NCBI GenBank assembly: GCA_963699165.1
Contig: OY969413.1
Location: 212,310 to 276,309, forward strand
DNA length: 64,000 nucleotides
Direction of reading: 5' to 3'
Source: Candidatus Kaiserbacteria bacterium
Lineage (GTDB): Bacteria; Patescibacteriota; Minisyncoccia; Phycocordibacterales; Phycocordibacteraceae
Below the pieces are notes generated by a model. The model was not told the DNA's origin, did no database searches, and saw only the letters and a list, made by a program, of their open reading frames with translations. The translations under genes and the position numbers were made by a program. Positions 252-34,592 of the stretch are shown piece after piece (the first letter of the stretch is position 1; every line of letters begins with the position of its first letter).

Positions 252-502
252 TTCGCAGTACGCTTGTGCTCCTGGCGTTCGTTTCCGCGATGTTGTTTCC
301 GTGGCCGGTTACGGTTTTGCTTGCACTCGCATCCGCCGCTAGCGACCCTCTTGTGCCGCTTGCCGTTGGTATCTTCGCGGATACGCTCTATTACTCGCCG
401 CACGCGGGTTCAGCCCCTTATTTTACGTTGTTTGGAACTCTTGGCACCGCCGTCGCGTTTTTCGTGCGCAGCTGGCTAAAGGCGAGTACAATTCGGGGAT
501 GA
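248..502 (+). CDS. mreD: MreD-like small polytopic membrane protein
   Basis: Hydrophobic 84-aa product. ATG at 248 overlaps the mreC stop (ATGA), and its stop overlaps the mrdA start (ATGA). Position between mreC and PBP2. The six-frame ORF starts earlier at 179 (alternative start), so the start is uncertain. Confidence 0.35.
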   Translation: MIRSTLVLLAFVSAMLFPWPVTVLLALASAASDPLVPLAVGIFADTLYYSPHAGSAPYFTLFGTLGTAVAFFVRSWLKASTIRG

Positions 503-2184
503 AATGGCGCGGATTGAAATGGCGGGATCCGGAGATTGCCCCGGATGAAATATTTCTTGACTCGTCAAACACGACCGATTTTAACCGCGAACGCTTTGAA
601 GGACGGCTGGAGAAGCCGCTTTCGCGCCGGACTTTTTTCATTCTGACGGGAACGATTACCGCTCTTGTTGCGATACTCGCTGTCCGTTCGTGGCATTTGC
701 AGATCGCGAACGGTCCCGCCTTTGCGGAGCAGAGTGCGCACAACAGTTTGGAGGCCGTATCGATTTTTGCGCCGCGTGGTGTCATTACCGACATGCATGG
801 AACGGTAATCGCCGAAAATATTCAAAAACCGGACGGAACCGCTGAACGCGAATACCCCGTTCCGTCCCTGAGCAATATCATCGGCTATGTGTCGTATCCG
901 AAAAAGGACGCCAAGGGCGTGTACTACGATACAAACGAGACGGGCGTTACCGGTTTGGAAGCGCAGTACAATTCACTGCTCGCCGGAAGTAATGGACAGC
1001 TTTTGACCGAGACCGATGCGGTCGGAAACATTCATTCGCAAGGCACTGTCGTTCCCGCGAAAGAGGGAGGAACGCTTCAGTTGTCGATTGATGCGAATCT
1101 TGAAAAACTATTTGCGAAAGCCATTGCCGACACGGCCACGAATCAGCATTTCATCGCCGGCGCGGGCGTCATTATGGATGTGCACACGGGTGCCGTGCGC
1201 GCTATCGTTTCGTATCCGAGTTATGACTCAAACGTGATGTCGAACGGCGGTCCGTCCGATGCAATTGCCGCGTACAATACGAATATCGGACATCCGTTTC
1301 TCGACCATGCCGTGCAGGGCGTGTATGCGCCGGGTTCTATCGTCAAACCGTTCGTTGCGTACGGCGCGCTCTCCGACGGCATTATTACACCGGACACCAC
1401 TATCGACGACCCGGGTTTTTTGTCGCTGCCCGATCCGTATCATCCGGGCAAGAAATTTATTTACAAAGGATGGCGGGCGCTCGGACCCGTGAACGTGGAG
1501 AAGGCGATTGCATGGTCATCGGATATTTTCTTTTACACGGTCGGCGGTGGCAATCAGGGCCAAAAGGGTCTCGGCATCGACCGGCTGGATTATTGGTATC
1601 GGCAATTCGGTCTCGGGACGACGACCGGCATCGGCGTCGCGGGCGAGGCGGACGGACTTCTGCCGACGCCAGCATGGAAGCAGGCGACGTTCAAGGAGCC
1701 GTGGTATTTGGGCGACACGTTCTTTACGGCCATCGGGCAATATTCGATGCAGGTGACGCCGATACAAATGGCGCGAGCGATATCCGCGGTGGCAAACGGC
1801 GGAAAACTATTTACACCGACGCTGATTGCCGGACAAACGGCTCCGTATTCTACGGTGCCGGTTGACCCTGCGGCATTCAACGTGGTGCGGACCGGTATGC
1901 GCGAAGGCGTTACGACCGCGCTTGCGAGCGCCATCAACCTTCCGTATGTTTCCGTCGCCGCTAAAACGGGAACGGCGCAAACCGGCGTCAACAACCAATA
2001 TGACAACTCCTGGGTGGAAGGATTTTTTCCGTACGAAAATCCGCAGTATGCATTCGTGGTTGTGCTCGAACGCGGTCCCTCCGGCGCCGGCGAAGAGTCC
2101 GTAAACGTCATGCGGGAGTTGTTTGATTCGCTACATGCCGAGAATTCGCAGTATGTCGGGGGGATTGCGACGACGACTCCGTAG
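499..2184 (+). CDS. mrdA: Penicillin-binding protein 2 (peptidoglycan D,D-transpeptidase)
   Basis: 561 aa. N-terminal TM segment, SxxK motif (S-I-V-K), and KTGTA motif near the C-terminus. Immediately follows mreCD. Confidence 0.85.
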   Translation: MKWRGLKWRDPEIAPDEIFLDSSNTTDFNRERFEGRLEKPLSRRTFFILTGTITALVAILAVRSWHLQIANGPAFAEQSAHNSLEAVSIFAPRGVITDMHGTVIAENIQKPDGTAEREYPVPSLSNIIGYVSYPKKDAKGVYYDTNETGVTGLEAQYNSLLAGSNGQLLTETDAVGNIHSQGTVVPAKEGGTLQLSIDANLEKLFAKAIADTATNQHFIAGAGVIMDVHTGAVRAIVSYPSYDSNVMSNGGPSDAIAAYNTNIGHPFLDHAVQGVYAPGSIVKPFVAYGALSDGIITPDTTIDDPGFLSLPDPYHPGKKFIYKGWRALGPVNVEKAIAWSSDIFFYTVGGGNQGQKGLGIDRLDYWYRQFGLGTTTGIGVAGEADGLLPTPAWKQATFKEPWYLGDTFFTAIGQYSMQVTPIQMARAISAVANGGKLFTPTLIAGQTAPYSTVPVDPAAFNVVRTGMREGVTTALASAINLPYVSVAAKTGTAQTGVNNQYDNSWVEGFFPYENPQYAFVVVLERGPSGAGEESVNVMRELFDSLHAENSQYVGGIATTTP

Positions 2185-2755: not shown

Positions 2756-4675
2756 ATGGCATTGCTTGATACGGTGCGCGCAGAGAGAATCGCGAAAATC
2801 GCGCGCTTGAAAGAGGCGGGCTTGGAGGCATATCCGGCACGCACCAACCGCACGCACAGCATCGCGCAGTTTTTACAGAATCACGAATCCCTTCAAAAGA
2901 ATGCCGAAGAGGTTTCGCTCGGCGGCCGCATCCTTTCAATTCGAGAACACGGAGGATCTCTTTTCATAGATATTTTCGATGGCACGAAAGGACAGTGCTA
3001 CATACAGCGCGACAAGCTCGGCGAAGAATCCTTCAACCTCTTTAAAGACACGGTCGATACGGGCGACATTATTGAATTTCAAGGAATTGCGTTTACGACC
3101 AAGCGCGGCATGCCGTCGCTCGATGTTTTAACCTGGCGGATGCTCGCGAAGTCGTTGCGCCCATTGCCGGACGAATGGTTCGGCATCAAAGACGAAGACG
3201 AGCGCTTTCGAAAACGCTATCTGGATATTCTGCTCACGAAAGATCTCGCCGAGCGCATCCGTCGCCGCTCCGTTTTCTGGAACACGTTCCGTCAATTTCT
3301 TTTGGAGCGCGACTACATCGAAGTTGAAACGCCGGTTCTTGAGACGACGACCGGCGGGGCCGAAGCGCGGCCATTTTCGACGCATCACAACGCACTCGAC
3401 ATCGACGTGTATCTTCGCATCTCCGCGGGAGAATTATGGCAGAAACGGCTGATGGTGGCCGGTCTGCCAAAAGTATTTGAAATCGGGCGCATTTTCCGCA
3501 ATGAGGGTATGTCAGCGGAACACGCGCAGGACTACACCCAGCTCGAATTTTACGAAGCATTCAGCGACTATGAAGCCGGCATGGAAATGATTAAAGAGTT
3601 GTACCGGAAAGTGGCGCAGGAAGTTTTCGGCACACAGCAGTTTGACATCCGAGGCCACAAAGTCGACTTGGCGGGCGAGTGGCAGGTGTATGAATATGGA
3701 AAACTTCTTGAGGAAAGATTCGGTTTAAATCCGGTAACTGAGATTTACAGCAAGACGGGCCGAAGGGTGACTGAAGAAGATTTGAAAGCCATTTGCAAAG
3801 AAGCGGGTATCGGATACGAGGAGGGCGGGTTGAACATCGTGCGTACGGCAGACAATCTTTGGAAACTCATTCGCAAGGAAATTGCCGGTCCGGGATTTCT
3901 CATAGGCATTCCCGTTTCGATGGAGCCGCTTGCAAAGCGCGCGCAAGACGGCAAGACCGTCGAACGTTTTCAGGTACTCATTGCCGGAAGCGAAGTCGGG
4001 AAGGGTTTTAGCGAACTCAACGATCCGGTTGACCAGCGCGAGCGTTTTGAAAAACAGCAGGCGCTCCGCGACGCGGGCGATGAAGAAGCGCAGATGGCTG
4101 ACGAGGACTACGTCGAAGCGCTCGAATACGGGATGCCGCCTGCATTCGGCTTTGGCATCTCCGAGCGGCTGTTCAGTTTTCTCGAAGGTGTTTCGATTCG
4201 CGAAGGTCAAATCTTCCCGCTTTTACGGCCGCAGGAACACGTCGCAAAGAAGCATGTCGAAAAACAAAAAGCGGTCGTCGTCATACAGCGGAGCGGTCTC
4301 GAACCGTGGCAAATTTTAAATACGGTTGCGCATATTTCCGCAGAGTTTGGTGTGCGGGAAGGGAGAAGTCTCCTGTATCAAGACAGCCTAACGACAGCGG
4401 ACGGCACGCGTATTCCGCTCAACATCCAGCATCCCATCATGCTGAAAGAGGCTCCTTCAGTCGAAAGTATTAAAAAGCTTTTTCTTGCGGCGCAGGAGCA
4501 TAAACTTCAGGTCACCGCATTTACGCGCGAGATGATTGAAACGACTAATGATAAAAAAATAATTAAAGAAACGGCCGCGAAGGATTTTAACGATGTCGAA
4601 TTCCTCGGTGTTTTGCTGTTCGGTCCGGTTTCAGCCGTCGAGAAACTGACTGCTGAATTTTCTGCATACACCTAA
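2756..4675 (+). CDS. lysS: Lysyl-tRNA synthetase class II with ~130-aa C-terminal extension
   Basis: N-terminal OB anticodon-binding domain; class II motifs including IFRNEG and a motif-3-like GxGxGxxR region. At 639 aa it is about 130 aa longer than typical bacterial LysRS. Confidence 0.9.
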   Translation: MALLDTVRAERIAKIARLKEAGLEAYPARTNRTHSIAQFLQNHESLQKNAEEVSLGGRILSIREHGGSLFIDIFDGTKGQCYIQRDKLGEESFNLFKDTVDTGDIIEFQGIAFTTKRGMPSLDVLTWRMLAKSLRPLPDEWFGIKDEDERFRKRYLDILLTKDLAERIRRRSVFWNTFRQFLLERDYIEVETPVLETTTGGAEARPFSTHHNALDIDVYLRISAGELWQKRLMVAGLPKVFEIGRIFRNEGMSAEHAQDYTQLEFYEAFSDYEAGMEMIKELYRKVAQEVFGTQQFDIRGHKVDLAGEWQVYEYGKLLEERFGLNPVTEIYSKTGRRVTEEDLKAICKEAGIGYEEGGLNIVRTADNLWKLIRKEIAGPGFLIGIPVSMEPLAKRAQDGKTVERFQVLIAGSEVGKGFSELNDPVDQRERFEKQQALRDAGDEEAQMADEDYVEALEYGMPPAFGFGISERLFSFLEGVSIREGQIFPLLRPQEHVAKKHVEKQKAVVVIQRSGLEPWQILNTVAHISAEFGVREGRSLLYQDSLTTADGTRIPLNIQHPIMLKEAPSVESIKKLFLAAQEHKLQVTAFTREMIETTNDKKIIKETAAKDFNDVEFLGVLLFGPVSAVEKLTAEFSAYT

Positions 4676-5138: not shown

Positions 5139-6062
5139 TTGCAAGATGTCGGAGATGCACTCGACCGACCGAAGAGTGTCATATGGTACGAGACGCAAAA
5201 GAAGAGGAAGGGACGGCCGTATGATGCTGCATATGCGCATCACATTTCATACGTACGAAGGAAATACAGCCGAGCGGTCGGCAAGATGATTGCTCTCGAC
5301 CCGAAGCTCCGGAAGTTCATCGAGGCGCATCTCTTCGACGATCAGTCGCCCGAAAACATCTCACTTCGATTGAAGCGGATCGAGAAGGATATCGGATATG
5401 CTTCATCCTCGGCTATACGCCGATATATCAAGAGCCCGTATGGCAGACGGATCGAGTCGCATCGAGCAAAGGTATTCAAGAAGAGGCGACGCTCTCGGCC
5501 ATCGAAACCACACATTGCCGACAAGCGCCTGATCGACAAACGACCGAGCAAAATCAACAAGCGATGGGGATTGGGTCACATGGAGGGCGACTTCATCGTG
5601 TCGGGCAAGAGCGGTCAAGGCATCATTCTTGGTCTGCGGGATCGCAGGGTGCGCAAAAACCTGCTGGAGCGGATCCTGCCAGTGTCAGTGCGAAACGTGG
5701 AGCGAGCGCTTCGCAGAATGAAAAAGCGGTATCCCGAGATGCAGACCATCACATTCGACAACGATATTCTCTTTCTCGAACACAAACGGCTAGAGAAGGT
5801 GCTTGGGGTGAAGATATATTTCTGTCATGTGCATGCGCCATGGGAGAAGCCATCAATCGAGAATCTGAACAAGGACTTGCGGCGGTACATCCCGAAAAGC
5901 TCGGATATTTCAAAGTATTCAAAAAGATTTGTGCAGAAACTCGAAGCAAAGATGAATCGCCGCTTCATGGATGTGCTCGGTTCACTCACGCCAGATGAGG
6001 CGTATGCTGCGGAAAAGAAACAACGCGCTCAGAGGAGCGCAAAAAACCGTCGTTCGAATTGA
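5139..6062 (+). CDS. IS30-family transposase, N-terminally truncated (possible pseudogene/remnant)
   Basis: GHMEGDFIV (the HWEGD-type first catalytic Asp region) plus downstream D and E regions. TTG start. Lacks the ~70-aa N-terminal HTH of full-length IS30 transposases. Confidence 0.7.
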   Translation: MQDVGDALDRPKSVIWYETQKKRKGRPYDAAYAHHISYVRRKYSRAVGKMIALDPKLRKFIEAHLFDDQSPENISLRLKRIEKDIGYASSSAIRRYIKSPYGRRIESHRAKVFKKRRRSRPSKPHIADKRLIDKRPSKINKRWGLGHMEGDFIVSGKSGQGIILGLRDRRVRKNLLERILPVSVRNVERALRRMKKRYPEMQTITFDNDILFLEHKRLEKVLGVKIYFCHVHAPWEKPSIENLNKDLRRYIPKSSDISKYSKRFVQKLEAKMNRRFMDVLGSLTPDEAYAAEKKQRAQRSAKNRRSN

Positions 6063-6118: not shown

Positions 6119-7162
6119 TCAATTCATTGTACGCGTCCAGTACTTTTGGCAGTCCCCGACGGTTAATGTACACACAATATACCGCAAGGGGGACACCATG
6201 CCGAGCGACTGGTGCGGGCGTTTGGTGTTGTACCAGATCAGCCAGTCGACAAGCTTCAGATTGAAGGAATGAATATCGTCCCGCAGCAGGCCCCGATTCA
6301 GCATGATGAAGTCCTCGGAGACGGTGCGATTGAATCGTTCGACGTGGGCATTCATCTTGGGAGTGCGGGGGCGGGTGTGAAAGTGCGTGAGCCCGAGTTC
6401 GGCACAGGCATCCTCGAAGTGTTTGGCGAACTCGCTCCCGTTGTCGGTCTGCAACTCGTCGATATCGAAGGGGCAAACCTCGATGACTCGGCGAAGGAAG
6501 TCGTCCGCGCTTCTCGACGAGTGGTTCGTATACGCGCCCGCAAAGGCGAACTTCCGCTCCACGTCCACTGCCGTGAGGACGTACCGCTTCACGCCGTCGA
6601 TGAAGCGGACGACGGTATCGAGCTCCATGCCGCGCTTGCCGGTGCGGCGAAGCTTGGTACGGCGTTTCTGCGGTGTTTCCGTGTGATTGCCCGTACGTGC
6701 GTGGAACGAGAGCCGGCTCTGCTGCGGGAGCAGACCGCGGTTCTTCAAATCCAGAATGACCCGCCCAACGTATGACTCCGACACGGAGTACCCTTCTTCG
6801 CGCAGGAGAACGGCAAGCTTTGCTTTCCCAAGCCGGGGATGCGCCTGTCGTTCGCGGATGATGAAATCCTCGACCTCGGGCAGAACAGTCCTCCTTCGAC
6901 GCGCCTTCGGCGCAGTGCTCTTCGGGTCAAGTGCATCAATGCGGCCCTCGTGGGCTTTGAGTTCCTCCTTCCAGCGATACAAGGTGCGCTCCGAGGTGCC
7001 AAAGGCGTCGTATGCGGCCTCCGTCCCGTGCATGTCCCAGAATCCCAATATCTTCACCCGTCTGTCGACTTCCTTTGGTTTCCGCATATGCCGCAATCGT
7101 ATCGTCCTTTCCCACATGCTCAACCAGCCCTTCGTACCCCTGAAATTGCTTCTGATGCGCAT
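6119..7162 (-). CDS. IS481-family DDE transposase (HTH + rve integrase core); ORF terminates in flanking DNA
   Basis: 347 aa with DDE/rve hallmarks (TDNGSEF, HTRPRTPKMNAHVERFNRT). The last in-IS codon is the final ACA of the element; the stop is supplied by flank DNA (MN* here). Confidence 0.85.
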   Translation of the reverse strand: MRIRSNFRGTKGWLSMWERTIRLRHMRKPKEVDRRVKILGFWDMHGTEAAYDAFGTSERTLYRWKEELKAHEGRIDALDPKSTAPKARRRRTVLPEVEDFIIRERQAHPRLGKAKLAVLLREEGYSVSESYVGRVILDLKNRGLLPQQSRLSFHARTGNHTETPQKRRTKLRRTGKRGMELDTVVRFIDGVKRYVLTAVDVERKFAFAGAYTNHSSRSADDFLRRVIEVCPFDIDELQTDNGSEFAKHFEDACAELGLTHFHTRPRTPKMNAHVERFNRTVSEDFIMLNRGLLRDDIHSFNLKLVDWLIWYNTKRPHQSLGMVSPLRYIVCTLTVGDCQKYWTRTMN

Positions 7163-7206
7163 ATATCCTCGGTTATGAGGACTGCCAAATGTATCTGAAC
7201 TTATGC
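6128..7206 (-). mobile_element. IS481-family insertion sequence, copy 1 of 3 (~1079 bp, imperfect ~28-bp terminal inverted repeats, no target duplication at this copy)
   Basis: Identical (one coding difference) to 22926..24004 and 61070..62148. Ends are TGTACGCGTCCAGTACTTTTGGCAGTCC ... GGACTGCCAAATGTATCTGAACTTATGC. Flanks ATTCAT / AGCCCT do not match. Confidence 0.85.
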
Positions 7207-7408
7207 AGCCCTTGAGAGAAATCGAAACTGTTTTGCCATAAAATATGGCGTACAGACTGGTTTTTATGGGAATCAAATTGCATTCGCGCATCATTGATTT
7301 GCCATATCCAATCTGCCTTTCGGCATATGCATTTGAAAAAACACGGTGCGCGGCACGTGCGTAGCTTTTCGCTGTAATACGTGTCTGTGGATAACGTCCT
7401 ATAGGGAA

Positions 7409-7454
7409 GTGGGGCAAAGTGGCATATACTTCACTACTAGTGGGATGAAGTGGG
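7409..7454 (+). promoter_or_regulatory. Two pairs of MraZ-box-like direct repeats (GTGGG-N5-GTGGC and GTGGG-N5-GTGGG) upstream of mraZ, followed by a TTGACA -35-like hexamer
   Basis: GTGGGgcaaaGTGGC at ~7409-7423 and GTGGGatgaaGTGGG at ~7440-7454; TTGACA at ~7468. MraZ is known to bind GTGGG direct repeats with 5-nt spacers in dcw promoters. Confidence 0.45.
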
Positions 7455-13029: not shown

Positions 13030-16000
13030 ATGCCGTCGCGTCGTCGCTTTTCCACACTACCTACACTCGTTTTAATACTCTCTCTTGCGCCGCTTGCTGC
13101 GCAAGCGGCGCTGTATGCCCCCGGTGCAACTCTCGACCCTGCCTGTGGTCCCACCGATCCCAATTGTGGTGTAGCCACTACTACGATTTCAGGCACCATC
13201 ACAATGAACGGAAGCATCATTCCGTCTGTTGCAAATACATACTCGCTCGGTACTGCGCAGAACACATGGAAAGACGTGTATGTAGGTCCGGGTTCATTGT
13301 ATGTGAATGGACAGGAGGTTTTGTATACCGACCCATCGCACAATGTGAATGTGAGTGCGGATGTGAACCAGGACTTGATTTTACAGACGAGCGGCACGGG
13401 AGACATTCAACTAAACCCAAGCGGAACCGGCGGATTGATTTTGCTCAAAGGAAATGTGCAGCTTTCAGCAGGGAAGACTTTGCGCAGTTCCGATGGAACA
13501 CCGCTCCAGTTTAGTGACGGCATTCAAGCAGGCAATCTCGCACTTCAGGCAAACAAGCTTGCCGCGGCAAATACAAATGGCAGTCTCGAATTTGCATCGC
13601 TTGGACTCGGTGCCGTGTACGTGAGTCACGGGAATTTCGGCATCGGCACCACTTCGCCCCTCGCCGCCCTCGCTGTCTCGGGCGGCGCCTCCATCGGTTC
13701 CGACTACAACTTCGCCGCGCCAAGTAACAGCCTCATCGTCGAAGGCCTGGTCGGTATTGGCACCACCAGTCCTTCGCAATCGCTTTCAGTAAATGGTCGC
13801 GTGTACAGTTCTGGCGGTTTCCAATTCCCAGACGGAACAATTCAAACCACCGCCGCCTTCGGCGGCGGTGCCACCTCAACTCTCCTCTCCGACTCCAACA
13901 CCTTCTCCGGCCTCGACTCATTTACAAATGCGAGCAGCAACTTCGCAGGAACTTGGCAGGGGAAAGCGCTTTCATATTTTCAAACCGCTCTTGGATACAC
14001 TCCATACAACGCAACCAACCCAAACAACTACATCCCTCTTACCGCTCTTTCGGCAGGCACCGGCATCTCATACAACAACACTACGGGCCAAATCACCAAC
14101 ACCGGCATCACTTCCAACACCGGCAACTGGGCCGGCACGTGGCAGACATATTCTCCTGCATCCTTCCAACCGGCAGGAGCATATGCAACCTTCGGGTATC
14201 CGTTCCCATCAGGCGCAACAACAACGGCACTTACAATCGACGGCGCAACATTTGCCGCAGGTTCAACAGGCAACGTCGGCATTGGGACGACGAGTCCGAC
14301 ATCTCCTTTGCAAATTGGTGTAGATAGCTTTACTACGCCAGATTTGTTAATAGGAAGTGGTGCGAATGTTGGGAACTTTATTTCTTTGTCAGGTAACAGA
14401 GGTATTATAGGTGTAAATCCTTCGAGCGGGCAATTCTCCCTTACAGCTGGGTCTGGAAAAGCTTTTGCATTTTACGTAAATAGTACAAATGCGCCAGAGA
14501 CAGGCACTCAAGCTTTGATTGTACAATCAAATGGCAACGTCGGCATCGGCAATACGTCGCCCTCCTACAAACTCGACGTATCGGGCTTCATCAACACCGA
14601 CCAATACAGCGGATACAATCAGGCGGGGAACACAGTGCTGTATGCGAGCACAACAAACAACTCGCTTGCCATTGGCGCTTCACAAGCAGCTGCGTGGATG
14701 TCAGCGTCTTCGACGCAGTGGTATAGCGTCGCAATTGGAAGTGGCGCACTTGCGACGACTCCGACAAGTGCTGGGGCACAATACAATACGGCGGAGGGCT
14801 ATCAGGATTTGAATCACAACACCACTGGCTCCTACAACTCCGCACAGGGAGCGAATGCCCTCTACAACAACACCACTGGCTCCTACAACTCCGCACAGGG
14901 GTACAAAGCCCTCTACTACAACACCACCGGCTCATACAACTCCGCACAGGGGTTCTACGCCCTCCAAAACAACACCACTGGCTCCAACAACTCCGCACAG
15001 GGTAATTCCGCCCTCCACTCCAACACCACTGGCTCCAACAACTCCGCACAGGGTCAGGCCGCCCTCTACTCCAACACCTCGGGCAATCAAAACTCAGCGC
15101 AAGGTGCGAACTCCCTCTCCTCCAACACCACTGGCTCCTACAACTCCGCACAGGGTAATTCCGCCCTCTACTCCAACACCACTGGCAACTACAACTTCGG
15201 ACTTGGTTACCAGGCAGGCTATGGCGACGGCACCAATGCCGACAACCGCTCCGTCATCGACAACTACATGACCTTCATCGGTACATACTCGTCGCGCGAC
15301 GCTTCGGTGGCTTCCACAACTGCACTTAGCAAAAGCATCGCCATCGGATACAACGCGAAAGTCGGATGCTCGAACTGCCTTGTGCTCGGTGGGACGGGTG
15401 CGGATGCGGTGAATGTGGGGATTGGCAATGTCTCTCCCTCATACCCACTCGACGTATCCGGCTTCATCAACACCGACCAATACAGCGGGTACAAACAAGC
15501 GGGGAATACGGTGCTGTATGCAAGCACGACAAACAATTCTCTCGCCATCGGGGCATCGAGCGCGGCAGCGTGGATGGCGGCATCTTCGACAAATTGGTAT
15601 AGCGTCGCAATTGGAAGTGGTGCGCTTGCGACGACTCCGACAAATGCGAGTGCGCAATACAACACTGCTGAGGGCTATCAGGCGTTAAATCACAACACCA
15701 CTGGCTCCAACAACTCCGCACAGGGGTACAAAGCCCTCAACGCCAACACCACTGGCTACAACAACTCCGCACAAGGTTTAAACGCCCTCTTATCAAACAC
15801 CACTGGCTCATGGAATGTCGCACAGGGAGTGAATTCCCTTTCCCACAACACCACAGGCTCCAACAACTCCGCACAGGGTTATCAAGCCCTCTACTTCAAC
15901 ACCACTGGCCAACAAAACTCCGCACAAGGTGTGAGCGCCCTCTACGCCAACACCACTGGCTCATACAACTCCGCACAGGGAAAAGGAGCCCTCTACTCCA

Positions 16001-17085
16001 ACACCACTGGCTCATACAACTCCGCACAGGGTTTTAACGCCCTCTCCTCCAACACCACTGGCTCATACAACTTCGGACTTGGTTACCAGGCAGGCTATGG
16101 CGACGGCTCCAACGCCGACAACCAGTCGGTCATCGACAACTATATGACCTTCATAGGAACGTACTCGTCGCGCGACGCTTCGGTGGCTTCCACAACTGCG
16201 CTAAGCAAAAGCACAGCAATCGGATACAACGCGAAAGTGGGGTGCTCGAACTGCCTTGTGCTTGGTGGGACGGGTGCGGATGCGGTAAATGTCGGCATCG
16301 GGACGACGACGCCATACGCACGATTGATGGTTTGGGGACCGGACACCGCTTCCACTTCCGCCTTTGCGATTGTGAACAGCGCATCCACCACCGTCTTCTC
16401 AATCTTCGACAACGGCAACGCCACCTATTCCGGCTCCATCTTCCAATCGTCCGATGCACGACTAAAGTCCAACGTTACTCCGCTTGATGCCTCTTCTTCT
16501 CTTGCCGCCATCAACGGACTCACGCCTGTCTCATACAACCGTCTCGACCAGAACGACTCGGGTACGAACTTGGGCTTCATCGCGCAAGCCGTACAGAGCG
16601 TGTTCCCCGAACTCGTCTCCACCACCTCTCCCACGGTACTTACCCCGGGCGGCACCCTCACGGTCAACTATGTGGGACTCATCGCGCCTCTCGTGAAGGC
16701 CGTGCAGGCGCTTTCGGGGCAGGTGAGTGCGCTTGCCTCGACGGTGACGGGTTTTGCGCAGTCGTTTACTTCGCAGAATATTACGGCAAAACAGCAACTC
16801 TGTGTCGGCGATACCTGCGTCACTGAAAGCCAGTTGAAAACGCTTTTGCAAAATGCGGGGCAGGGGAGCGGACAATCCGCGGCCGCCGCAGCGGCGGCCG
16901 CGGGCTCGGCATCGGGAAATTCGCAAGACGCGGCCGCAGGCCAAATCAAAGTCGATTCGGCAAGTTCTACCGAACAGCAAACACCTGCTGATTCCACAGC
17001 GACTTCAGCTCCTGTGACGGGGACTACAACTTCGCTTGATATAATCTCACAGACGGATTCGTCAGTTTCAAACACTACTAACTAA
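13030..17085 (+). CDS. Giant secreted repeat protein (1351 aa): signal peptide, GIGTTSP-type fibre repeats, 17-aa NTTGSxNSAQGxxALYx beta-roll-like repeats in two duplicated blocks, C-terminal phage-tail-fibre-type intramolecular chaperone (peptidase S74-like, SDARLK) domain
   Basis: N-terminal MPSRRRFSTLPTLVLILSLAPLAAQA signal. SSDARLKSNVTPLD...LTPVSYNRLD...GFIAQAVQSVFPELV matches the self-cleaving chaperone of endosialidase/tail-fibre proteins (Ser ... Lys five residues later). Ala/Ser/Gly-rich C-terminal tail. Confidence 0.85.
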   Translation: MPSRRRFSTLPTLVLILSLAPLAAQAALYAPGATLDPACGPTDPNCGVATTTISGTITMNGSIIPSVANTYSLGTAQNTWKDVYVGPGSLYVNGQEVLYTDPSHNVNVSADVNQDLILQTSGTGDIQLNPSGTGGLILLKGNVQLSAGKTLRSSDGTPLQFSDGIQAGNLALQANKLAAANTNGSLEFASLGLGAVYVSHGNFGIGTTSPLAALAVSGGASIGSDYNFAAPSNSLIVEGLVGIGTTSPSQSLSVNGRVYSSGGFQFPDGTIQTTAAFGGGATSTLLSDSNTFSGLDSFTNASSNFAGTWQGKALSYFQTALGYTPYNATNPNNYIPLTALSAGTGISYNNTTGQITNTGITSNTGNWAGTWQTYSPASFQPAGAYATFGYPFPSGATTTALTIDGATFAAGSTGNVGIGTTSPTSPLQIGVDSFTTPDLLIGSGANVGNFISLSGNRGIIGVNPSSGQFSLTAGSGKAFAFYVNSTNAPETGTQALIVQSNGNVGIGNTSPSYKLDVSGFINTDQYSGYNQAGNTVLYASTTNNSLAIGASQAAAWMSASSTQWYSVAIGSGALATTPTSAGAQYNTAEGYQDLNHNTTGSYNSAQGANALYNNTTGSYNSAQGYKALYYNTTGSYNSAQGFYALQNNTTGSNNSAQGNSALHSNTTGSNNSAQGQAALYSNTSGNQNSAQGANSLSSNTTGSYNSAQGNSALYSNTTGNYNFGLGYQAGYGDGTNADNRSVIDNYMTFIGTYSSRDASVASTTALSKSIAIGYNAKVGCSNCLVLGGTGADAVNVGIGNVSPSYPLDVSGFINTDQYSGYKQAGNTVLYASTTNNSLAIGASSAAAWMAASSTNWYSVAIGSGALATTPTNASAQYNTAEGYQALNHNTTGSNNSAQGYKALNANTTGYNNSAQGLNALLSNTTGSWNVAQGVNSLSHNTTGSNNSAQGYQALYFNTTGQQNSAQGVSALYANTTGSYNSAQGKGALYSNTTGSYNSAQGFNALSSNTTGSYNFGLGYQAGYGDGSNADNQSVIDNYMTFIGTYSSRDASVASTTALSKSTAIGYNAKVGCSNCLVLGGTGADAVNVGIGTTTPYARLMVWGPDTASTSAFAIVNSASTTVFSIFDNGNATYSGSIFQSSDARLKSNVTPLDASSSLAAINGLTPVSYNRLDQNDSGTNLGFIAQAVQSVFPELVSTTSPTVLTPGGTLTVNYVGLIAPLVKAVQALSGQVSALASTVTGFAQSFTSQNITAKQQLCVGDTCVTESQLKTLLQNAGQGSGQSAAAAAAAAGSASGNSQDAAAGQIKVDSASSTEQQTPADSTATSAPVTGTTTSLDIISQTDSSVSNTTN
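14520..16300 (+). repeat. Tandem direct duplication of ~880 bp (two ~294-aa blocks, ~85-90% identical) inside the giant gene, each containing ~9 copies of a 51-bp (17-aa) repeat
   Basis: Blocks ~14520-15410 and ~15410-16300 align nearly base for base (NVGIGNTSPSYKLDVSGFINTDQYSGY... vs NVGIGNVSPSYPLDVSGFINTDQYSGY...). Both end in ...CSNCLVLGGTGADAVNVGIG. Confidence 0.8.
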
Positions 17086-17088
17086 TAT

Positions 17089-17592
17089 ATGATATATATG
17101 CACGACAAGACTCGACTTAATTTTATACAGCGTTTTTTTAGCTTCATCGGTCGCAGTTTTATTTGGATTGTTCTTTTGTTTGCAGCTGCAATTCTTTTCG
17201 GCGTCTATGAACTTGGACGATACAGCGTGTATCAAGCCAATCCGGGGCTCGCAAATGCAGAGCAGGCAAACAGCATACTTGAAAATGTGGGCAAGCTCAT
17301 CAACTTGCCAAATGAGACTCCAACGATGGCAACAATCAAAGACGCAATCAGCGCTAAGCAAGGACAGCCTTTTCTTGTAGATGCCGAGGACGGCGATGTT
17401 CTTATTGTATATCCCAATGCGGCGCAGGCGTTTTTGTATCGCCCGTCGGTGAATAAACTTATTAACGTTGGGCCGGTGACCAACGGGGGAAACTCGCCCG
17501 CGATACAGCAGCCGTCCGCACCTGCCAAATCTACGGCAGAGGCGACATCGAGCAATGACACAGGCGCTACCAGCACCAAGACGAAGAAATAG
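17089..17592 (+). CDS. Hypothetical membrane-anchored protein
   Basis: 167 aa, one N-terminal TM helix, Ser/Thr/Ala-rich C-terminus. Starts 3 nt after the giant gene stop. Confidence 0.45.
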   Translation: MIYMHDKTRLNFIQRFFSFIGRSFIWIVLLFAAAILFGVYELGRYSVYQANPGLANAEQANSILENVGKLINLPNETPTMATIKDAISAKQGQPFLVDAEDGDVLIVYPNAAQAFLYRPSVNKLINVGPVTNGGNSPAIQQPSAPAKSTAEATSSNDTGATSTKTKK

Positions 17593-31728: not shown

Positions 31729-32118
31729 ATGACTATAGCAGAAGCGCGGGAAATATGCAAAAACTTCATCGCCGCACACGCGCCTGCGGGAGGTAATTTG
31801 TCCCGGGATGCCATCGTTGTCGGCATCCTTATCCTTTCGTCGTCTTCGAGCTTTGCGTTGGGCTATTTTGCAGGAAAAGACGGCAGGGAAGCCGGTACGG
31901 TGACCGTCCAGGAGTCGCTTCTCGCCGAGACGGGAACCGCGGCAACGTCGTCGCCGCAATCCGGACAATTTGTCGCATCGAAAAGCGGGGCAAAATATTA
32001 CCTGTCTTCGTGTGCCGGAGCGTCGCGCATTTCGGACGAAAACAAAGTGTGGTTTAACTCAGCTGCAGCCGCAAAAAGCGCCGGTTATTCGCCCGCTTCA
32101 AATTGCAAAGGCCTGTGA
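31729..32118 (+). CDS. Hypothetical membrane-anchored protein with C-terminal small Cys-containing domain (Y-x-x-S-x-C-x(n)-N-x-x-F-x-S-x-x-A-x-x-x-GY-x-P-x(n)-C)
   Basis: 129 aa, one TM. C-terminus KYYLSSCAGASRISDENKVWFNSAAAAKSAGYSPASNCKGL. Confidence 0.5.
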   Translation: MTIAEAREICKNFIAAHAPAGGNLSRDAIVVGILILSSSSSFALGYFAGKDGREAGTVTVQESLLAETGTAATSSPQSGQFVASKSGAKYYLSSCAGASRISDENKVWFNSAAAAKSAGYSPASNCKGL

Positions 32119-32137
32119 TCTGCTAAAATCATTTTAT

Positions 32138-32899
32138 ATGGCTGATGGCGGACCCGACAAAACGCAGGACTCTAATGCATCCTCGATAAACGAGACGGCC
32201 GAACGGCTCGCAAAAGTCGTTCACGAGGGACGCCGCACCATGCCGGACGACCGACCGTTGCTCGTATGCAAACCGAGAGAAATCGAGTCGTGGCGCGTGT
32301 TCAAAATCATGTCGGAGTTCATCGAGGGATTCGACATCATTCGTCGCTACGGACTTGCCGCGTCTTTCTTTGGCAGCGCGCGCGCGACTATCGAACATGA
32401 CATGTATAAAAAAGCCGAAATTCTCGCAGGCCGTCTCGCGAAAAAAGGTTTTGCGATTATTACCGGCGGCAGCGCGGGCATCATGCAGGCCGCAAACAAA
32501 GGAGCATTCGAGGCCGGCGGCGATTCCGTCGGTCTCAACATCAATCTGCCGTCAAATCAAGGATATAACCCGTACCTCACCGAGAAATTCGGTTTCGATC
32601 ATTTCTTCGTTCGGAAAGTCATGCTCACGTACGCGTCCGAGGTGTACATTTATTTTCCCGGCGGTTTTGGCACCCTCGACGAATTTTTTGAAATCATCAC
32701 GCTTATCCAGACGAAGAAGATTCAAAAAGTGCCGGTGATTCTATTCGGGAAAGAATATTGGGAACCGCTGCTTTCGTTCATCGAACAAACTCTTTACAAA
32801 GAATCCGCCGCAATCGATAAGAATGACCTGGAACTCTACAATCTTGTCGATTCGGTGGATGAGGCCTACGATTACATCATTTCGAATCTTTCCTGTTAG
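32138..32899 (+). CDS. LOG-family protein (cytokinin riboside 5'-monophosphate phosphoribohydrolase-like Rossmann fold)
   Basis: TGGSAGIMQAANKGA and PGGFGTLDE motifs. Internal ATG chosen to avoid overlap with the upstream gene. Confidence 0.8.
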   Translation: MADGGPDKTQDSNASSINETAERLAKVVHEGRRTMPDDRPLLVCKPREIESWRVFKIMSEFIEGFDIIRRYGLAASFFGSARATIEHDMYKKAEILAGRLAKKGFAIITGGSAGIMQAANKGAFEAGGDSVGLNINLPSNQGYNPYLTEKFGFDHFFVRKVMLTYASEVYIYFPGGFGTLDEFFEIITLIQTKKIQKVPVILFGKEYWEPLLSFIEQTLYKESAAIDKNDLELYNLVDSVDEAYDYIISNLSC

Positions 32900-33240
32900 A
32901 TATGCCGCTCGACTTTAGTCAAAAACAGCTGGTTAACAAATCCCTGCATTCGCATCGGCTGAGGAAGTGGGCGCTCGTATTCAGTATTATTTCGATGCTT
33001 GCCTCGCTTGCGGTCCTTATTATCAGAATTCTGCGATAGAAACGAAAGGGAACAGGGCAGTGGATAAATCCGCTCCCCGGCCGATGAGGCATGATATCCT
33101 CTTCCCCATGGCACGAGAAAAAAACACAGCGCGCAATCTTGAGTTTTATGCGTTTTGGACCGGATTTACCAGTACACTCATTAGCTTGCTTCAGGTTATC
33201 GTAATAGCCGTCAAGAAATAAAAGGGAACGGAACAGACGT

Positions 33241-33276
33241 CACGAAATATAGCTCCGAAAGGAGCTATATTTCGTG
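33241..33276. terminator. Perfect 16-bp hairpin with GAAA tetraloop (CACGAAATATAGCTCC-gaaa-GGAGCTATATTTCGTG)
   Basis: Read directly from sequence; lies in an AT-rich island between convergent small genes. No clear T-run. Confidence 0.4.
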
Positions 33277-33354
33277 GGGGACTTCCGTATCCAATGTGCG
33301 CACAATATATCTTTTGCGCACTACTGAAAAAGCTAATACAATCTTTCTTTCAAA

Positions 33355-33729
33355 TCACGAAAGTAAATGTCTTTGAGCAAAAGCCAAGATGACGTAGATA
33401 ATTGTCATTACGATTACGATACCGATTAATGCAAACATAGTAATAACTAAAGGATGCGGCTTCTGTCGTATTTTTGGTCCGGTGTAAACGGTCTCCGAGA
33501 TTGGTTTCCTTTCCGTCATTACAAGAATTAGTCCAAGAACGCAGCCGAGGATGAAAAAACCTTGTGCAAGTATCGCAATCATGAATACAAGCAGTCCAAA
33601 CCCGAATGAGGACGATTCCTGATAAGCATAATTGTTCGTGCCAGCCATTATTGAACTCCAAGCAAGACCAATCAGGCCAATAATGGCTAGCAACCTGGCA
33701 AGATATCGGAAGAATTTTCGAATCGCCAT
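33355..33729 (-). CDS. Hypothetical polytopic membrane protein (AT-rich gene)
   Basis: 124 aa, ~4 predicted TM helices; local GC visibly lower than neighbouring genes. Confidence 0.5.
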   Translation of the reverse strand: MAIRKFFRYLARLLAIIGLIGLAWSSIMAGTNNYAYQESSSFGFGLLVFMIAILAQGFFILGCVLGLILVMTERKPISETVYTGPKIRQKPHPLVITMFALIGIVIVMTIIYVILAFAQRHLLS

Positions 33730-33962
33730 AGTAGCAATGTTATTTTATATACGCCGTAACTAGGTTGACAATCCATTGCCAGCCGATAAGACAAAGATGA
33801 TAGATATAAGCAAAATTTGCCTGGCCGGCCGGAGAGTTGACAATTGACTGAATTGAGATGCCGAAAAATGACAACGCAAGCAGTAATACGAGCGTCCAGA
33901 AAATGAGATGCAGCATGTGTCTTCATTATACAACAAGGTTCTCCGGGTGATACTATCTGGCC

Positions 33963-34592
33963 ATGACGAGCAGTGGAATGGCGGCAGTAAGGCATTTTAA
34001 GCGGGTTGACCCGATTTTCCATGCGGCTACAAAGCGCCACCACTCTTCCCTGCCGGCGCGTCTAGCCGAGAAACGCACGAAATATGCTCTGTTTGAGTCG
34101 CTTGTGTCGACTGTCATTTCTAAGCAACTCGGTATGGCGGCGGCGGACACAATTTTCGCGCGCGTTAAACAATCGTGCGGCGGAAAGATAACCGTCGATT
34201 CGGTTCTAAAGACGCGTGACGCGAAATTACGTTTGGCCGGATTGTCGGGCGCGAAAACGAAAACGCTAAAATCAATCGCCACGGCAATTCAAAACGGCGA
34301 ACTCGATTTAATAGCGCTCAAAAAGATGCCGGAGCAAGACGCCGCAGAAAAACTCATGCGCATTTGGGGCCTTGGTCCGTGGTCGGTCGAGATGTTTATG
34401 ATGTTCGCGCTTGGCCGCGAGGATGTGTTTTCGGCGGGCGATCTCGGATTGGTTCGCGCAATGGAAACGATTTACGGCTTGTCAAAAAATTTCCCGCGGG
34501 AAAACATCCTTAAAATCGCGCAAGCATGGTCGCCGTACCGGACCTATGCATGTCTGCTCCTGTGGCGTTCTAGAGATACGAAAGCGGATTGA
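33963..34592 (+). CDS. alkA: DNA-3-methyladenine glycosylase II-like (HhH-GPD superfamily)
   Basis: HhH-GPD motif region LGPWSVEMFMMFALGREDVFSAGDLGL with catalytic Asp. Confidence 0.8.
   Translation: MTSSGMAAVRHFKRVDPIFHAATKRHHSSLPARLAEKRTKYALFESLVSTVISKQLGMAAADTIFARVKQSCGGKITVDSVLKTRDAKLRLAGLSGAKTKTLKSIATAIQNGELDLIALKKMPEQDAAEKLMRIWGLGPWSVEMFMMFALGREDVFSAGDLGLVRAMETIYGLSKNFPRENILKIAQAWSPYRTYACLLLWRSRDTKAD

What the first reader, a model, noticed from the sequence alone, without database searches (positions are those of the whole stretch)
14520..16300. Near-identical ~880-bp tandem duplication plus 51-bp tandem repeats inside the giant gene: substrate for recombinational length variation
DNA at ~14520-15410 and ~15410-16300 aligns almost base for base, ~85-90% identical by eye. 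Each block contains about nine 51-bp repeats encoding NTTGSxNSAQGxxALYx. In-frame homologous recombination between blocks or repeats would add or remove whole fibre modules, a classic mechanism of surface-protein size or antigenic variation. In shotgun or metagenome assemblies this region is also prone to collapse or misassembly. The repeats create long alternative-frame ORFs (Pro/Thr-rich and Cys/Arg-rich) that are artefacts.
Basis: seen in the sequence. Interest (0 to 1): 0.5.

Follow-up and report, generated by a model that had tools for sequence, protein, structure and literature searches.

The report
Duplicated repeat module in fibre gene
A secreted, phage-tail-fibre-like surface protein gene of an ultra-small (Minisyncoccia/Patescibacteria) bacterium carries two diverged tandem copies of a 292-residue module built from 17-residue repeats. 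The duplication is real, but it is ordinary for this very large protein family, and nothing shows that its length varies today.

Summary
Window 14533-15408 and 15409-16284 are gap-free, in-frame tandem copies of an 876-bp (292-codon) unit. They are 82.6% identical in DNA and 82.5% in protein, so not "near-identical". Each copy holds seven canonical and two degenerate 51-bp units.

The host gene (13030-17085, 1351 aa) has a Sec-type signal peptide and a C-terminal Peptidase_S74 chaperone domain with the SDxxxK motif. It sits alone in a bacterial chromosome next to the cell-division (dcw) genes. The exact protein is in NCBI as a Minisyncoccia "tail fiber domain-containing protein".

The duplication is old: silent sites differ at 48% in the N-cap. 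Both copies are under purifying selection. Framework codons of the 51-bp units are homogenised onto rare codons, which is a footprint of concerted evolution. Module and unit numbers vary widely among homologues.

Recombination has therefore shaped this region over evolutionary time. There is no evidence of present-day length or antigenic variation. Both blocks have kept exactly the same length, two assemblies agree base for base, and no length variant exists in the protein collection searched. Misassembly is not supported.

The module is extremely common (about 40,000 cluster representatives, plus phage tail fibres). It has no Pfam model in the copy used and no solved relative by sequence. Interest is low.

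The parts
13030..17085 (+). Gene for a 1351-aa secreted fibre protein ('tail fiber domain-containing protein', Minisyncoccia MAG, MFZ1075464.1)
   Evidence: ORF list and translation. The exact protein is in NCBI/ENA. PHROG tail fibre, tail spike and virion structural families match at E 2e-52 to 1e-9.
13030..13107 (+). Sec-type signal peptide (aa 1-26, MPSRRRFSTLPTLVLILSLAPLAAQA|A)
   Evidence: Read directly from the translation: a basic n-region, a hydrophobic core and an AQA-A site. No signal-peptide predictor was run. The N-terminal AALYAPGATLDPAC motif is shared with other Minisyncoccia homologues.
13738..13893 (+). Fibre-shaft motif GxVGIGTTSP...FPDGTIQTTA (aa 237-288), matching the Bdellovibrio MAT fibre Bd2133
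   Evidence: phmmer against PDB: 8OND_A (Bd2133), E 5e-6. The GxxGIGTxxP motif recurs at aa 201, 239, 414 and 502, with variant forms at 794 and 1086.
14533..15408 (+). Block A: first copy of the 876-bp / 292-aa module (N-cap, nine 17-aa units, C-cap)
15409..16284 (+). Block B: second copy, 82.6% identical in DNA and 82.5% in protein to block A, with no gaps
14833..15189 (+). Seven canonical 51-bp units of block A (degenerate unit 0 at 14782-14832, unit 8 at 15190-15240)
   Evidence: TRF, in-frame unit table, codon table
15709..16065 (+). Seven canonical 51-bp units of block B (degenerate unit 0 at 15658-15708, unit 8 at 16066-16116)
   Evidence: TRF, in-frame unit table, codon table
16285..16449 (+). 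Distal 'tip' segment (aa 1086-1140). It begins with a third VNVGIGTTTP module start and ends at the predicted self-cleavage site.
   Evidence: Translation. Homologues share this segment at 60-73% identity behind different central modules.
16450..16617 (+). Peptidase_S74 intramolecular chaperone domain (aa 1141-1196), with the catalytic-type motif SDARLK at 16450-16467
   Evidence: Pfam PF13884, E 2.6e-15, 56.9 bits against a cut-off of 22. SDxxxK motif found; its role is as described in PMC10769870.
14855..15271 (+). Alternative-frame ORF, 138 aa, Pro/Thr-rich: a by-product of the repeats, not a gene
   Evidence: it is not conserved as an ORF in block B
14591..15151 (-). Antisense ORF, 186 aa, Cys/Arg/Trp-rich: a by-product of the repeats, not a gene
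   Evidence: it is broken into shorter ORFs in block B

Best explanation
The region encodes two tandem, diverged copies of a 292-residue fibre module inside a cell-encoded, Sec-exported, phage-tail-fibre-like surface protein of a Minisyncoccia (CPR/Patescibacteria) bacterium.

Each module has an N-cap (GNVGIG...FINTDQYSGY...SVAIG), nine 17-residue units (NSAQGxxALxxNTTGx) and a C-cap (YNFGLGYQAGYGDG...AIGYNAKVGCSNCLVLGGTGADA).

Inferred structure: each 17-residue unit forms one coil of a beta-solenoid. Conserved Asn, Gly, Ala and Leu form the core and turns, and six hypervariable positions (1, 7, 8, 11, 12, 17) lie on the surface. The C-terminal S74 domain probably drives trimerisation and then cleaves itself off at SDARLK. 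That would leave the two modules as the distal shaft just behind the tip. The likely role is adhesion to a host cell or surface.

Shown: the module arose by an in-frame tandem duplication at the conserved GxVGIG module junction, long enough ago for silent sites to diverge by 23-48% in the caps. Both copies are kept by purifying selection. The conserved core of the 51-bp units has been homogenised within this lineage (concerted evolution). Module and unit copy numbers differ among relatives.

Conclusion: recombination shapes this gene family over evolutionary time. In this genome the structure looks fixed, and it is not shown to be a fast length-variation switch.
For: Duplication and repeats.

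Age and selection:
- N-cap dS 0.93, dN 0.08.
- C-cap dS 0.31, dN 0.02.
- Array dS 0.30, dN 0.25.

Four-fold silent sites that differ between blocks:
- N-cap 22/46.
- C-cap 9/40.
- Framework codons 5/45 (Fisher test against the N-cap, p = 1.8e-4).

Codon evidence:
- Framework codons are uniform and rare for this genome. ACT appears in 11/14 units against a genome frequency of 0.08. GCA appears in 13/14 against 0.21. TCC appears in 12/14 against 0.18.
- NCG codons are avoided in the arrays (4/50 and 0/46) but not in the caps (13/32 and 14/32).
- Other genomes' arrays are heterogeneous (P0002, P0011) or homogenised onto different codons (P0009), so this is not a universal nucleotide-level constraint.
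- Positional correspondence between the canonical units A_i and B_i is lost (diagonal 39.1/51, off-diagonal 39.5/51, permutation p = 0.65).
- Variable positions give pN/pS 1.5 and framework positions 0.13.

Protein identity and context:
- S74 domain and SDxxxK motif.
- Match to Bd2133.
- PHROG tail-fibre families.
- Phage and IMG/VR relatives at 34-61% identity.
- Chromosomal context is MraW, FtsI-like PBP and Mur ligase, then tRNA-Glu, the fibre gene, two unknown ORFs, YqeY and RmuC. There are no phage genes nearby and no paralogue in the window.

Fold:
- The AF2 model has one short strand set per 17 residues, with pLDDT 70-84 in the array.

Family dynamics:
- Homologues hold 1 to 3 or more modules with variable unit numbers.
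- 21 of 120 homologues have internal duplications at 80% identity or more.
- The exhaustive search finds 40,572 representatives, with 3-23 matched stretches per protein.

Fixity:
- A second contig is identical over 10,056 nt.
- The protein's cluster has one member, and the next-best hit is 38% identical.
Against: - The fold rests on a monomer model of moderate confidence (mean pLDDT 62). Foldseek found no significant PDB match, and a sequence profile found no solved relative.
- Trimerisation, self-cleavage, surface display and adhesion are inferred from family knowledge and were not tested.
- The low silent divergence of framework codons could in part reflect a nucleotide-level constraint rather than gene conversion. 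It is also unexplained how homogenisation spares the hypervariable codons and the Gly6 wobble base (4/7 differ).
- The case for a fixed structure rests on only two contigs, which may come from the same sample. No reads or other strains were available.
Confidence: 0.75

Rival explanations
1. It is an active contingency locus. Frequent RecA-dependent or slipped-strand recombination between the two blocks, or among the 51-bp units, produces subpopulations with shorter or longer fibres (size or antigenic variation).
For: There are 19 in-frame exact direct repeats of 24-42 nt, including four of 26-34 nt that are only 51 nt apart. The units show a concerted-evolution footprint. Unit and module numbers vary across the family, and some homologues carry duplications that are 95-100% identical.
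Against: - Identity is only 82.6% between blocks and about 77% between units. Exact runs are at most 42 nt. From my own knowledge of E. coli recombination (minimum efficient pairing of roughly 25-30 bp, with a steep fall as sequences diverge), that is near the lower limit.
- Both blocks have kept exactly 292 codons and 7+2 units, even though up to 48% of silent sites have diverged.
- Two assemblies are identical.
- No length variant appears in the protein collection or in the metagenome scan.
Confidence: 0.13
2. The duplication is an assembly artefact, either a false tandem copy or a collapsed or expanded repeat.
For: Repeats are a known hazard in metagenome assembly. No reads were available to check.
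Against: - The copies differ at 152 of 876 positions. The pattern is biological: dN/dS is 0.07-0.08 in the caps, and the reading frame is intact throughout. An artefactual copy would be identical.
- The longest shared exact run is 42 nt, which is shorter than usual assembly k-mers.
- A 15,968-bp contig of GCA_049279115.1 matches the window (which must come from the 993-kb contig) over 10,056 nt with 0 mismatches.
Confidence: 0.02
3. It is a virion component: the tail fibre of a prophage, tailocin or contractile injection system, rather than a cell-surface fibre.
For: PHROG tail fibre and tail spike families match. The same module occurs in phage records and IMG/VR contigs. S74 domains are classically found in phage fibres and spikes.
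Against: - The protein has an N-terminal Sec-type signal peptide, which virion fibres assembled in the cytoplasm do not need.
- No phage, tail or baseplate genes lie nearby. The flanking genes are dcw cell-division genes, tRNA-Glu, YqeY and RmuC, and the two adjacent unknown ORFs have no PHROG hit.
- GC content is the same as in the surrounding DNA.
- Bdellovibrio provides a precedent for cell-encoded, surface-displayed S74 fibres (PMC10769870).
Confidence: 0.08
4. The hypervariable codons are written by a diversity-generating retroelement, with one block acting as template and the other as variable region.
For: Patescibacteria are known to be rich in such retroelements (my own knowledge). Variable codons sit inside a conserved scaffold, and many of them are AAY or TAY codons.
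Against: Mismatches between the blocks fall on all four bases. Only 44 of 152 have A in block A and 52 of 152 have A in block B, whereas a retroelement would put essentially all of them at template adenines. The caps also differ, mostly at silent sites. No reverse transcriptase was seen among the genes annotated near the locus, though the whole window was not scanned for one.
Confidence: 0.01

Closest known systems
Phage tail fibres and tailspikes with a C-terminal intramolecular chaperone (Peptidase_S74, 'chaperone of endosialidase'; K1F endosialidase and T5 pb1 are the textbook cases, from my own knowledge)
   Same: The protein has a C-terminal S74 domain above Pfam's cut-off with an SDxxxK motif. 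It matches PHROG tail-fibre and tail-spike families. The same N-cap, 17-aa array and C-cap module occurs in phage records (SPO1-like Bacillus phages, P-SSM2, HTVC111P) and in 80 IMG/VR contigs at 34-61% identity.
   Different: It is encoded alone in a bacterial chromosome with no phage neighbours, and it carries a Sec-type signal peptide. That points to a cellular surface fibre rather than a virion part.
Bdellovibrio bacteriovorus MAT ('mosaic adhesive trimer') fibres, S74 subgroup (Caulton et al. 2024, PMC10769870)
   Same: Both are cell-encoded and have a signal peptide, a long beta-rich fibre with recurring GxxGIGTxxP motifs and an S74 terminus with SDxxxK. There is a direct sequence match to Bd2133 (8OND, E 5e-6). 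The family is mosaic: N- and C-terminal parts are conserved while central modules are exchanged.
   Different: The organism is a Patescibacteria bacterium, not a Bdellovibrio predator. The ~130-aa N-terminal domain that defines the MAT family was not compared. The duplicated module of 17-aa repeats is not part of the Bd2133 or Bd3182 crystal structures, and a profile of the block finds no PDB relative.
YadA-like head domains of trimeric autotransporter adhesins (UspA1, BpaC, YadA)
   Different: No YadA_head (PF05658) or YadA anchor hit was found in this protein or in block A. There is no C-terminal beta-barrel anchor, and trimerisation would come from an S74 chaperone instead. The organism is not a classical diderm.
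Repeat-bearing bacterial surface proteins that vary in size by recombination between tandem repeats (for example group B streptococcal alpha C protein and mycoplasma Vlp proteins; my own knowledge)
   Same: The repeats are in-frame tandem repeats in a secreted surface protein, and they show a concerted-evolution footprint.
   Different: In those systems the repeats are identical or nearly so, and length polymorphism is observed among clones. Here the units are about 77% and the blocks 82.6% identical, and no polymorphism was found.

Membership tests
Peptidase_S74 (intramolecular chaperone) fibre/spike proteins | C-terminal PF13884 domain above Pfam's gathering score | tested here: met
   PF13884 at aa 1141-1196, E 2.6e-15, 56.9 bits against a cut-off of 22
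Peptidase_S74 (intramolecular chaperone) fibre/spike proteins | Ser-Lys catalytic motif SDxxxK at the cleavage site | tested here: met
   SDARLK at aa 1141-1146, the only occurrence in the protein. The motif is as defined in PMC10769870.
Peptidase_S74 (intramolecular chaperone) fibre/spike proteins | Homotrimer formation and autoproteolytic release of the chaperone | not testable with these tools
   This needs expression with SDS-PAGE or mass spectrometry, or a multimer structure prediction. Only monomer prediction was available.
Bdellovibrio MAT fibre family (S74 subgroup) | Signal peptide plus surface display | tested here: inconclusive
   A Sec-type N-terminus was read from the sequence, but no predictor was run. 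Surface display cannot be tested here.
Bdellovibrio MAT fibre family (S74 subgroup) | Conserved ~130-aa beta-rich domain immediately after the signal peptide | not tested
The PDB chain 8OND covers only Bd2133 residues 662-1031.
Bdellovibrio MAT fibre family (S74 subgroup) | Sequence similarity of the fibre shaft to MAT beta-helix segments | tested here: met
   aa 237-288 match Bd2133 residues 206-257 of chain 8OND_A, E 5e-6
Trimeric autotransporter adhesins (YadA-like) | C-terminal YadA-type beta-barrel membrane anchor | tested here: not met
   The Pfam scan of the whole protein at E <= 1 finds only Peptidase_S74 plus two chance-level hits.
Trimeric autotransporter adhesins (YadA-like) | YadA_head (PF05658) repeats detectable by sequence | tested here: not met
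   There is no PF05658 hit in the protein or in block A at E <= 0.1. The relative P0027 does carry such repeats elsewhere in its sequence.
Trimeric autotransporter adhesins (YadA-like) | Head-like beta-roll/solenoid fold | tested here: inconclusive
Recombination-driven size-variable surface protein (contingency locus) | Identical or nearly identical (>95%) tandem repeats | tested here: not met
   Blocks are 82.6% identical. Canonical units average 39-40 of 51 nt (about 77%). The longest exact repeat is 42 nt.
Recombination-driven size-variable surface protein (contingency locus) | Observed length polymorphism among clones, strains or reads | tested here: inconclusive
   Two contigs are identical, the protein cluster has one member, no variant appears among the homologues, and the JGI metagenome scan is empty. 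No reads and no second strain were available.
Diversity-generating retroelement target | Template/variable-region pair differing only at template adenines | tested here: not met
   Mismatches fall on all four bases (A 44, C 50, G 29, T 29 in block A).

The most novel reading that the evidence does not exclude
The duplicated module may be a binding surface as well as a spacer. After duplication, the six surface positions of each 17-residue coil diversified (pN/pS about 1.5), while recombination kept the scaffold uniform. The ultra-small, probably host-dependent bacterium would then display two different arrays of binding coils on one trimeric fibre, as a way to broaden or retune attachment to hosts. 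This would also be an example of a very abundant solenoid module (about 40,000 cluster representatives) that has no solved structure or Pfam model in the copy used. Cell-encoded S74 fibres in Patescibacteria are not described in the literature held here.
Probability: 0.2. Interest if true: 0.45.

Novelty: new member of a known kind. Interest (0 to 1): 0.2.

Why it matters
For this locus the value is mainly as a clean negative. A striking repeat structure in a surface-protein gene turns out to be an old, selectively maintained module duplication. It is typical of a huge family of mosaic, phage-related fibres, and it is neither an assembly error nor a demonstrated variation switch.

Three smaller points have some use:
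- Patescibacteria carry many chromosomal, signal-peptide-bearing S74 fibres. These resemble the prey-recognition fibres of Bdellovibrio, and no paper in the held library describes them. They are plausible host-attachment candidates for episymbionts.
- The module of 17-residue repeats is very common in cells and phages, yet it has no solved relative by sequence.
- The contrast between homogenised framework codons and hypervariable surface codons is a compact example of concerted evolution combined with diversification.

Tried and rejected
- **Strain-level comparison (empty).** The whole-protein search found no relative closer than 38% identity. The 90% cluster has one member. The scan of species-representative genomes with the N-terminal 501 aa gave only relatives at 35-53% over short stretches. 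The JGI metagenome scan with a degenerate pattern for YNFGLGYQAGYGDG found nothing. Length polymorphism therefore could not be tested.
- **Pfam and NCBIfam.** Neither has a family for the block.
- **Positional orthology of units.** I expected A_i to match B_i best. It does not (permutation p = 0.65). The 78% in-register identity of the arrays is therefore just the general unit-to-unit similarity.
- **Codon bias as the cause of uniform codons.** Rejected, because the fixed codons are rare in the genome and differ from those in the gene's own caps.
- **Universal nucleotide constraint.** Rejected, because arrays in other genomes use different or mixed codons.
- **Diversity-generating retroelement.** Rejected by the mismatch spectrum.
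- **Prophage context.** Rejected by the neighbouring genes.
- **Paralogues in the window.** None found.
- **Technical failures.** A blastp self-comparison for internal duplications reported only the diagonal, so I replaced it with an ungapped offset scan. The viral-contig scan with the alignment failed for lack of conserved columns, so I repeated it with the single block.
- **Literature.** Searches for S74 or tail-fibre proteins in CPR/Patescibacteria returned nothing relevant.

Full report
**1. The observation**

The window holds one long ORF at 13030-17085 (+), 1351 aa. Inside it, repeat finding and a direct alignment show two head-to-tail copies of an 876-bp unit with no gaps. A 30-nt sliding comparison at offset 876 places the limits at 14533-15408 (block A) and 15409-16284 (block B). 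About 20 nt of a third module start follow.

Identity is 724/876 = 82.6% in DNA and 241/292 in protein. Block A compared with 707 other in-frame offsets gives 27.5% +/- 1.8% (maximum 32%), so chance is excluded. Identity is uneven: 81.6% in the first 282 nt, 78% in the repeat array and 92% in the last 216 nt.

Tandem Repeats Finder reports period 51 with 7.5 copies in each block. In frame, each block has seven canonical 17-residue units (consensus x-N-S-A-Q-G-x-x-A-L-x-x-N-T-T-G-x) flanked by a degenerate first unit (YNTAEG...) and last unit (YNFGLG...).

They fall apart in block B, as expected for repeat by-products.

**2. The gene and its setting**

- The protein starts with a Sec-type signal sequence, read from the sequence.
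- It carries six GxVGIG(T/N)xxP module starts.
- It ends in a Peptidase_S74 'chaperone of endosialidase' domain (aa 1141-1196, E 2.6e-15, above Pfam's cut-off) that begins with SDARLK, the SDxxxK motif of these self-cleaving chaperones.
- PHROG families of tail fibres, tail spikes and virion structural proteins match it.
- The only informative PDB sequence match is the Bdellovibrio fibre Bd2133 (8OND, E 5e-6), through the motif GxVGIGTTxP...FPDGTxQTTA at aa 237-288.
- The exact protein is in NCBI as 'MAG: tail fiber domain-containing protein [Minisyncoccia bacterium]' (MFZ1075464.1). It occurs on contigs of 993,452 and 15,968 bp.
- The neighbourhood is ordinary chromosome. Upstream lie MraW, an FtsI-like PBP, a Mur ligase and tRNA-Glu. 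The fibre gene follows, then two ORFs without any family, YqeY, RmuC and a DEAD-box helicase.
- There are no phage genes, no shift in GC content and no paralogue in the window.

A signal peptide plus this context argue for a cell-surface fibre rather than a virion part. The precedent is the MAT fibres of Bdellovibrio, which are surface-displayed, trimeric, often S74-terminated and mosaic (PMC10769870).

**3. What the duplicated module is**

A profile of the two blocks finds full modules (N-cap, array, C-cap) in many relatives:
- One copy in P0002, P0022, P0046, P0049 and P0051.
- Two copies in P0023.
- Two to three copies in P0003.
- The number of 17-residue units varies between them.

The junction ...LGGxGxDAVxVGIGTxTP recurs at module boundaries in relatives. 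The duplication here was therefore cut at the family's normal module joint.

An exhaustive HMMER search with block A finds 40,572 cluster representatives at E <= 1e-3 and 5,172 at E <= 1e-30. The listed proteins have 3-23 matched stretches each and reach 6,570 aa. The module also occurs in phage records (SPO1-like Bacillus phages, cyanophage P-SSM2, Pelagibacter phage HTVC111P; 34-50% identity). It is found in 80 IMG/VR contigs too, some covering the whole block.

The module has no Pfam or NCBIfam model in the copies used and no solved relative by sequence profile.

I infer a beta-solenoid with one coil per unit. This is an inference, not a demonstration, and the protein is not a trimeric autotransporter because it has no YadA head or anchor hits.

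**4. History of the duplication**

Nei-Gojobori estimates between the blocks:

| Part | dS | dN |
|---|---|---|
| N-cap | 0.93 | 0.08 |
| C-cap | 0.31 | 0.02 |
| Array | 0.30 | 0.25 |

The duplication is therefore old, and both copies are under purifying selection in their caps.

Four-fold silent sites that differ between the blocks:

| Site class | Differing | Fraction |
|---|---|---|
| N-cap | 22/46 | 48% |
| C-cap | 9/40 | 23% |
| Framework codons of the canonical units | 5/45 | 11% |

The framework figure differs from the N-cap at p = 1.8e-4.

The framework codons are nearly uniform across all 14 units: AAC x14, ACC x14, GGC x14, GCA x13, TCC x12, ACT x11. Several of these are rare in the genome's other genes (ACT 0.08, TCC 0.18, GCA 0.21). 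The arrays avoid the genome-preferred NCG codons that the gene's own caps use freely.

In other genomes the same positions behave differently. They are heterogeneous in P0002, P0011 and L003, and homogenised onto different codons in P0009 (GGA x17, GCT x22). Codon bias and a universal nucleotide constraint are thus unlikely. Lineage-specific concerted evolution, or a comparatively recent amplification of the unit core, is the best reading.

Consistent with this, canonical unit A_i is no closer to B_i than to any other B unit (39.1 against 39.5 of 51 nt; permutation p = 0.65).

Six positions per unit (1, 7, 8, 11, 12, 17) are hypervariable, with pN/pS about 1.5 in register, against 0.13 for framework positions. 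The number of silent sites is small (24), so positive selection is only suggested. How homogenisation spares these codons and the neighbouring Gly6 wobble base (4/7 differ) remains unexplained.

**5. Is it a length-variation device?**

The substrate exists. All 19 maximal exact direct repeats of at least 24 nt (longest 42 nt) lie at offsets of 51, 102, 153, 255, 306, 672, 723, 825, 876 or 927 nt. All are in frame. The family clearly gains and loses modules: 21 of 120 homologues have an internal 100-aa duplicate at 80% identity or more, and 5 at 95% or more.

In this genome, however, the signs point to a fixed structure:
- The blocks have diverged at 152 positions.
- Both blocks have kept exactly the same length and unit count despite that divergence.
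- A second contig (GCA_049279115.1, JBAPNL010000089.1) is identical to the window over 10,056 nt.
- No shorter or longer version of the protein exists among the homologues found.
- The one metagenome scan found nothing.

The two contigs may derive from the same sample, so this is weak evidence for the population. It is good evidence against misassembly, together with the biological pattern of the differences. An artefactual copy would be identical.

A diversity-generating retroelement is excluded by the mismatch spectrum.

**6. Comparison with known systems, and verdict**

The protein meets the sequence criteria of the S74 fibre/spike class. It resembles the Bdellovibrio MAT fibres in architecture and in one shaft motif, but membership of that family was not fully tested because the N-terminal domain was not compared. 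It resembles TAA heads only in repeat style. It does not meet the criteria of a classical size-variable repeat protein.

It is a new member of a known, very large kind. Interest is low.

The modest points of interest are:
- Signal-peptide-bearing S74 fibres in Patescibacteria are abundant, yet no paper in the held library describes them.
- The ubiquitous 17-residue module has no solved structure.
- The scaffold is homogenised while the surface positions are hypervariable.

Noticed in passing
window 5139-6062 (+) and 6119-7417 (-): Two mobile-element genes sit back to back between a tRNA synthetase gene and the dcw cluster. One is an IS30-family transposase (NF033563, E 2e-49). The other is an rve-type integrase/transposase with HTH domains.
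   Followed up: no
window 2756-4675 (+): A class II aminoacyl-tRNA synthetase (Asp/Lys/Asn type, PF00152) is fused at its C-terminus to a DUF2000 domain (aa 505-637, E 1.5e-19).
   Followed up: no
window 12421-12493 (+): tRNA-Glu(CTC) lies 537 nt upstream of the fibre gene, directly after the Mur ligase gene. tRNA genes are common integration sites, but no integrase or repeat was seen next to it.
   Followed up: partly
window 17089-17592 (+) and 17555/17640-18451 (+): Two ORFs directly downstream of the fibre gene (called as 164 and 260 aa in the NCBI contig) have no Pfam, NCBIfam or PHROG match. Their function is unknown, and they could be partners of the fibre.
   Followed up: partly
window 16777-17082 (+), aa 1250-1351 of the fibre protein: After the S74 domain the protein continues with a conserved LCVGDTCVTESQLKTLLQ motif, a run of eight Ala and a Ser/Thr/Ala-rich tail. 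Several Minisyncoccia homologues share the motif and extend it with further domains.
   Followed up: no
window 32001-34000: GC content dips to 0.465 against about 0.54 elsewhere in the window.
   Followed up: no
window 14001-16000: There is a strong local compositional skew (GC skew -0.18, AT skew +0.17). It is caused by the repeated AAC/ACC/ACT/TCC/GCA codons of the arrays and is not a replication signal.
   Followed up: yes
window 499-2184 (+) and 9365-11104 (+): Two separate penicillin-binding-protein transpeptidase genes lie within 10 kb. Only the second is in the dcw cluster.
   Followed up: no
homologue P0005 (2244 aa, Bacteroidia MAG), aa 908-1141: A 117-aa segment is repeated in tandem with 100% identity. 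P0089, P0088, P0033 and P0048 also carry internal duplicates at 96-100% identity. These relatives would be better candidates for ongoing length variation than the window's gene.
   Followed up: partly
loci L016, L024, L071 (IMG/VR GVMAG contigs): The same 17-residue-repeat module also turns up on contigs labelled as giant-virus MAGs, at 46-57% identity.
   Followed up: no
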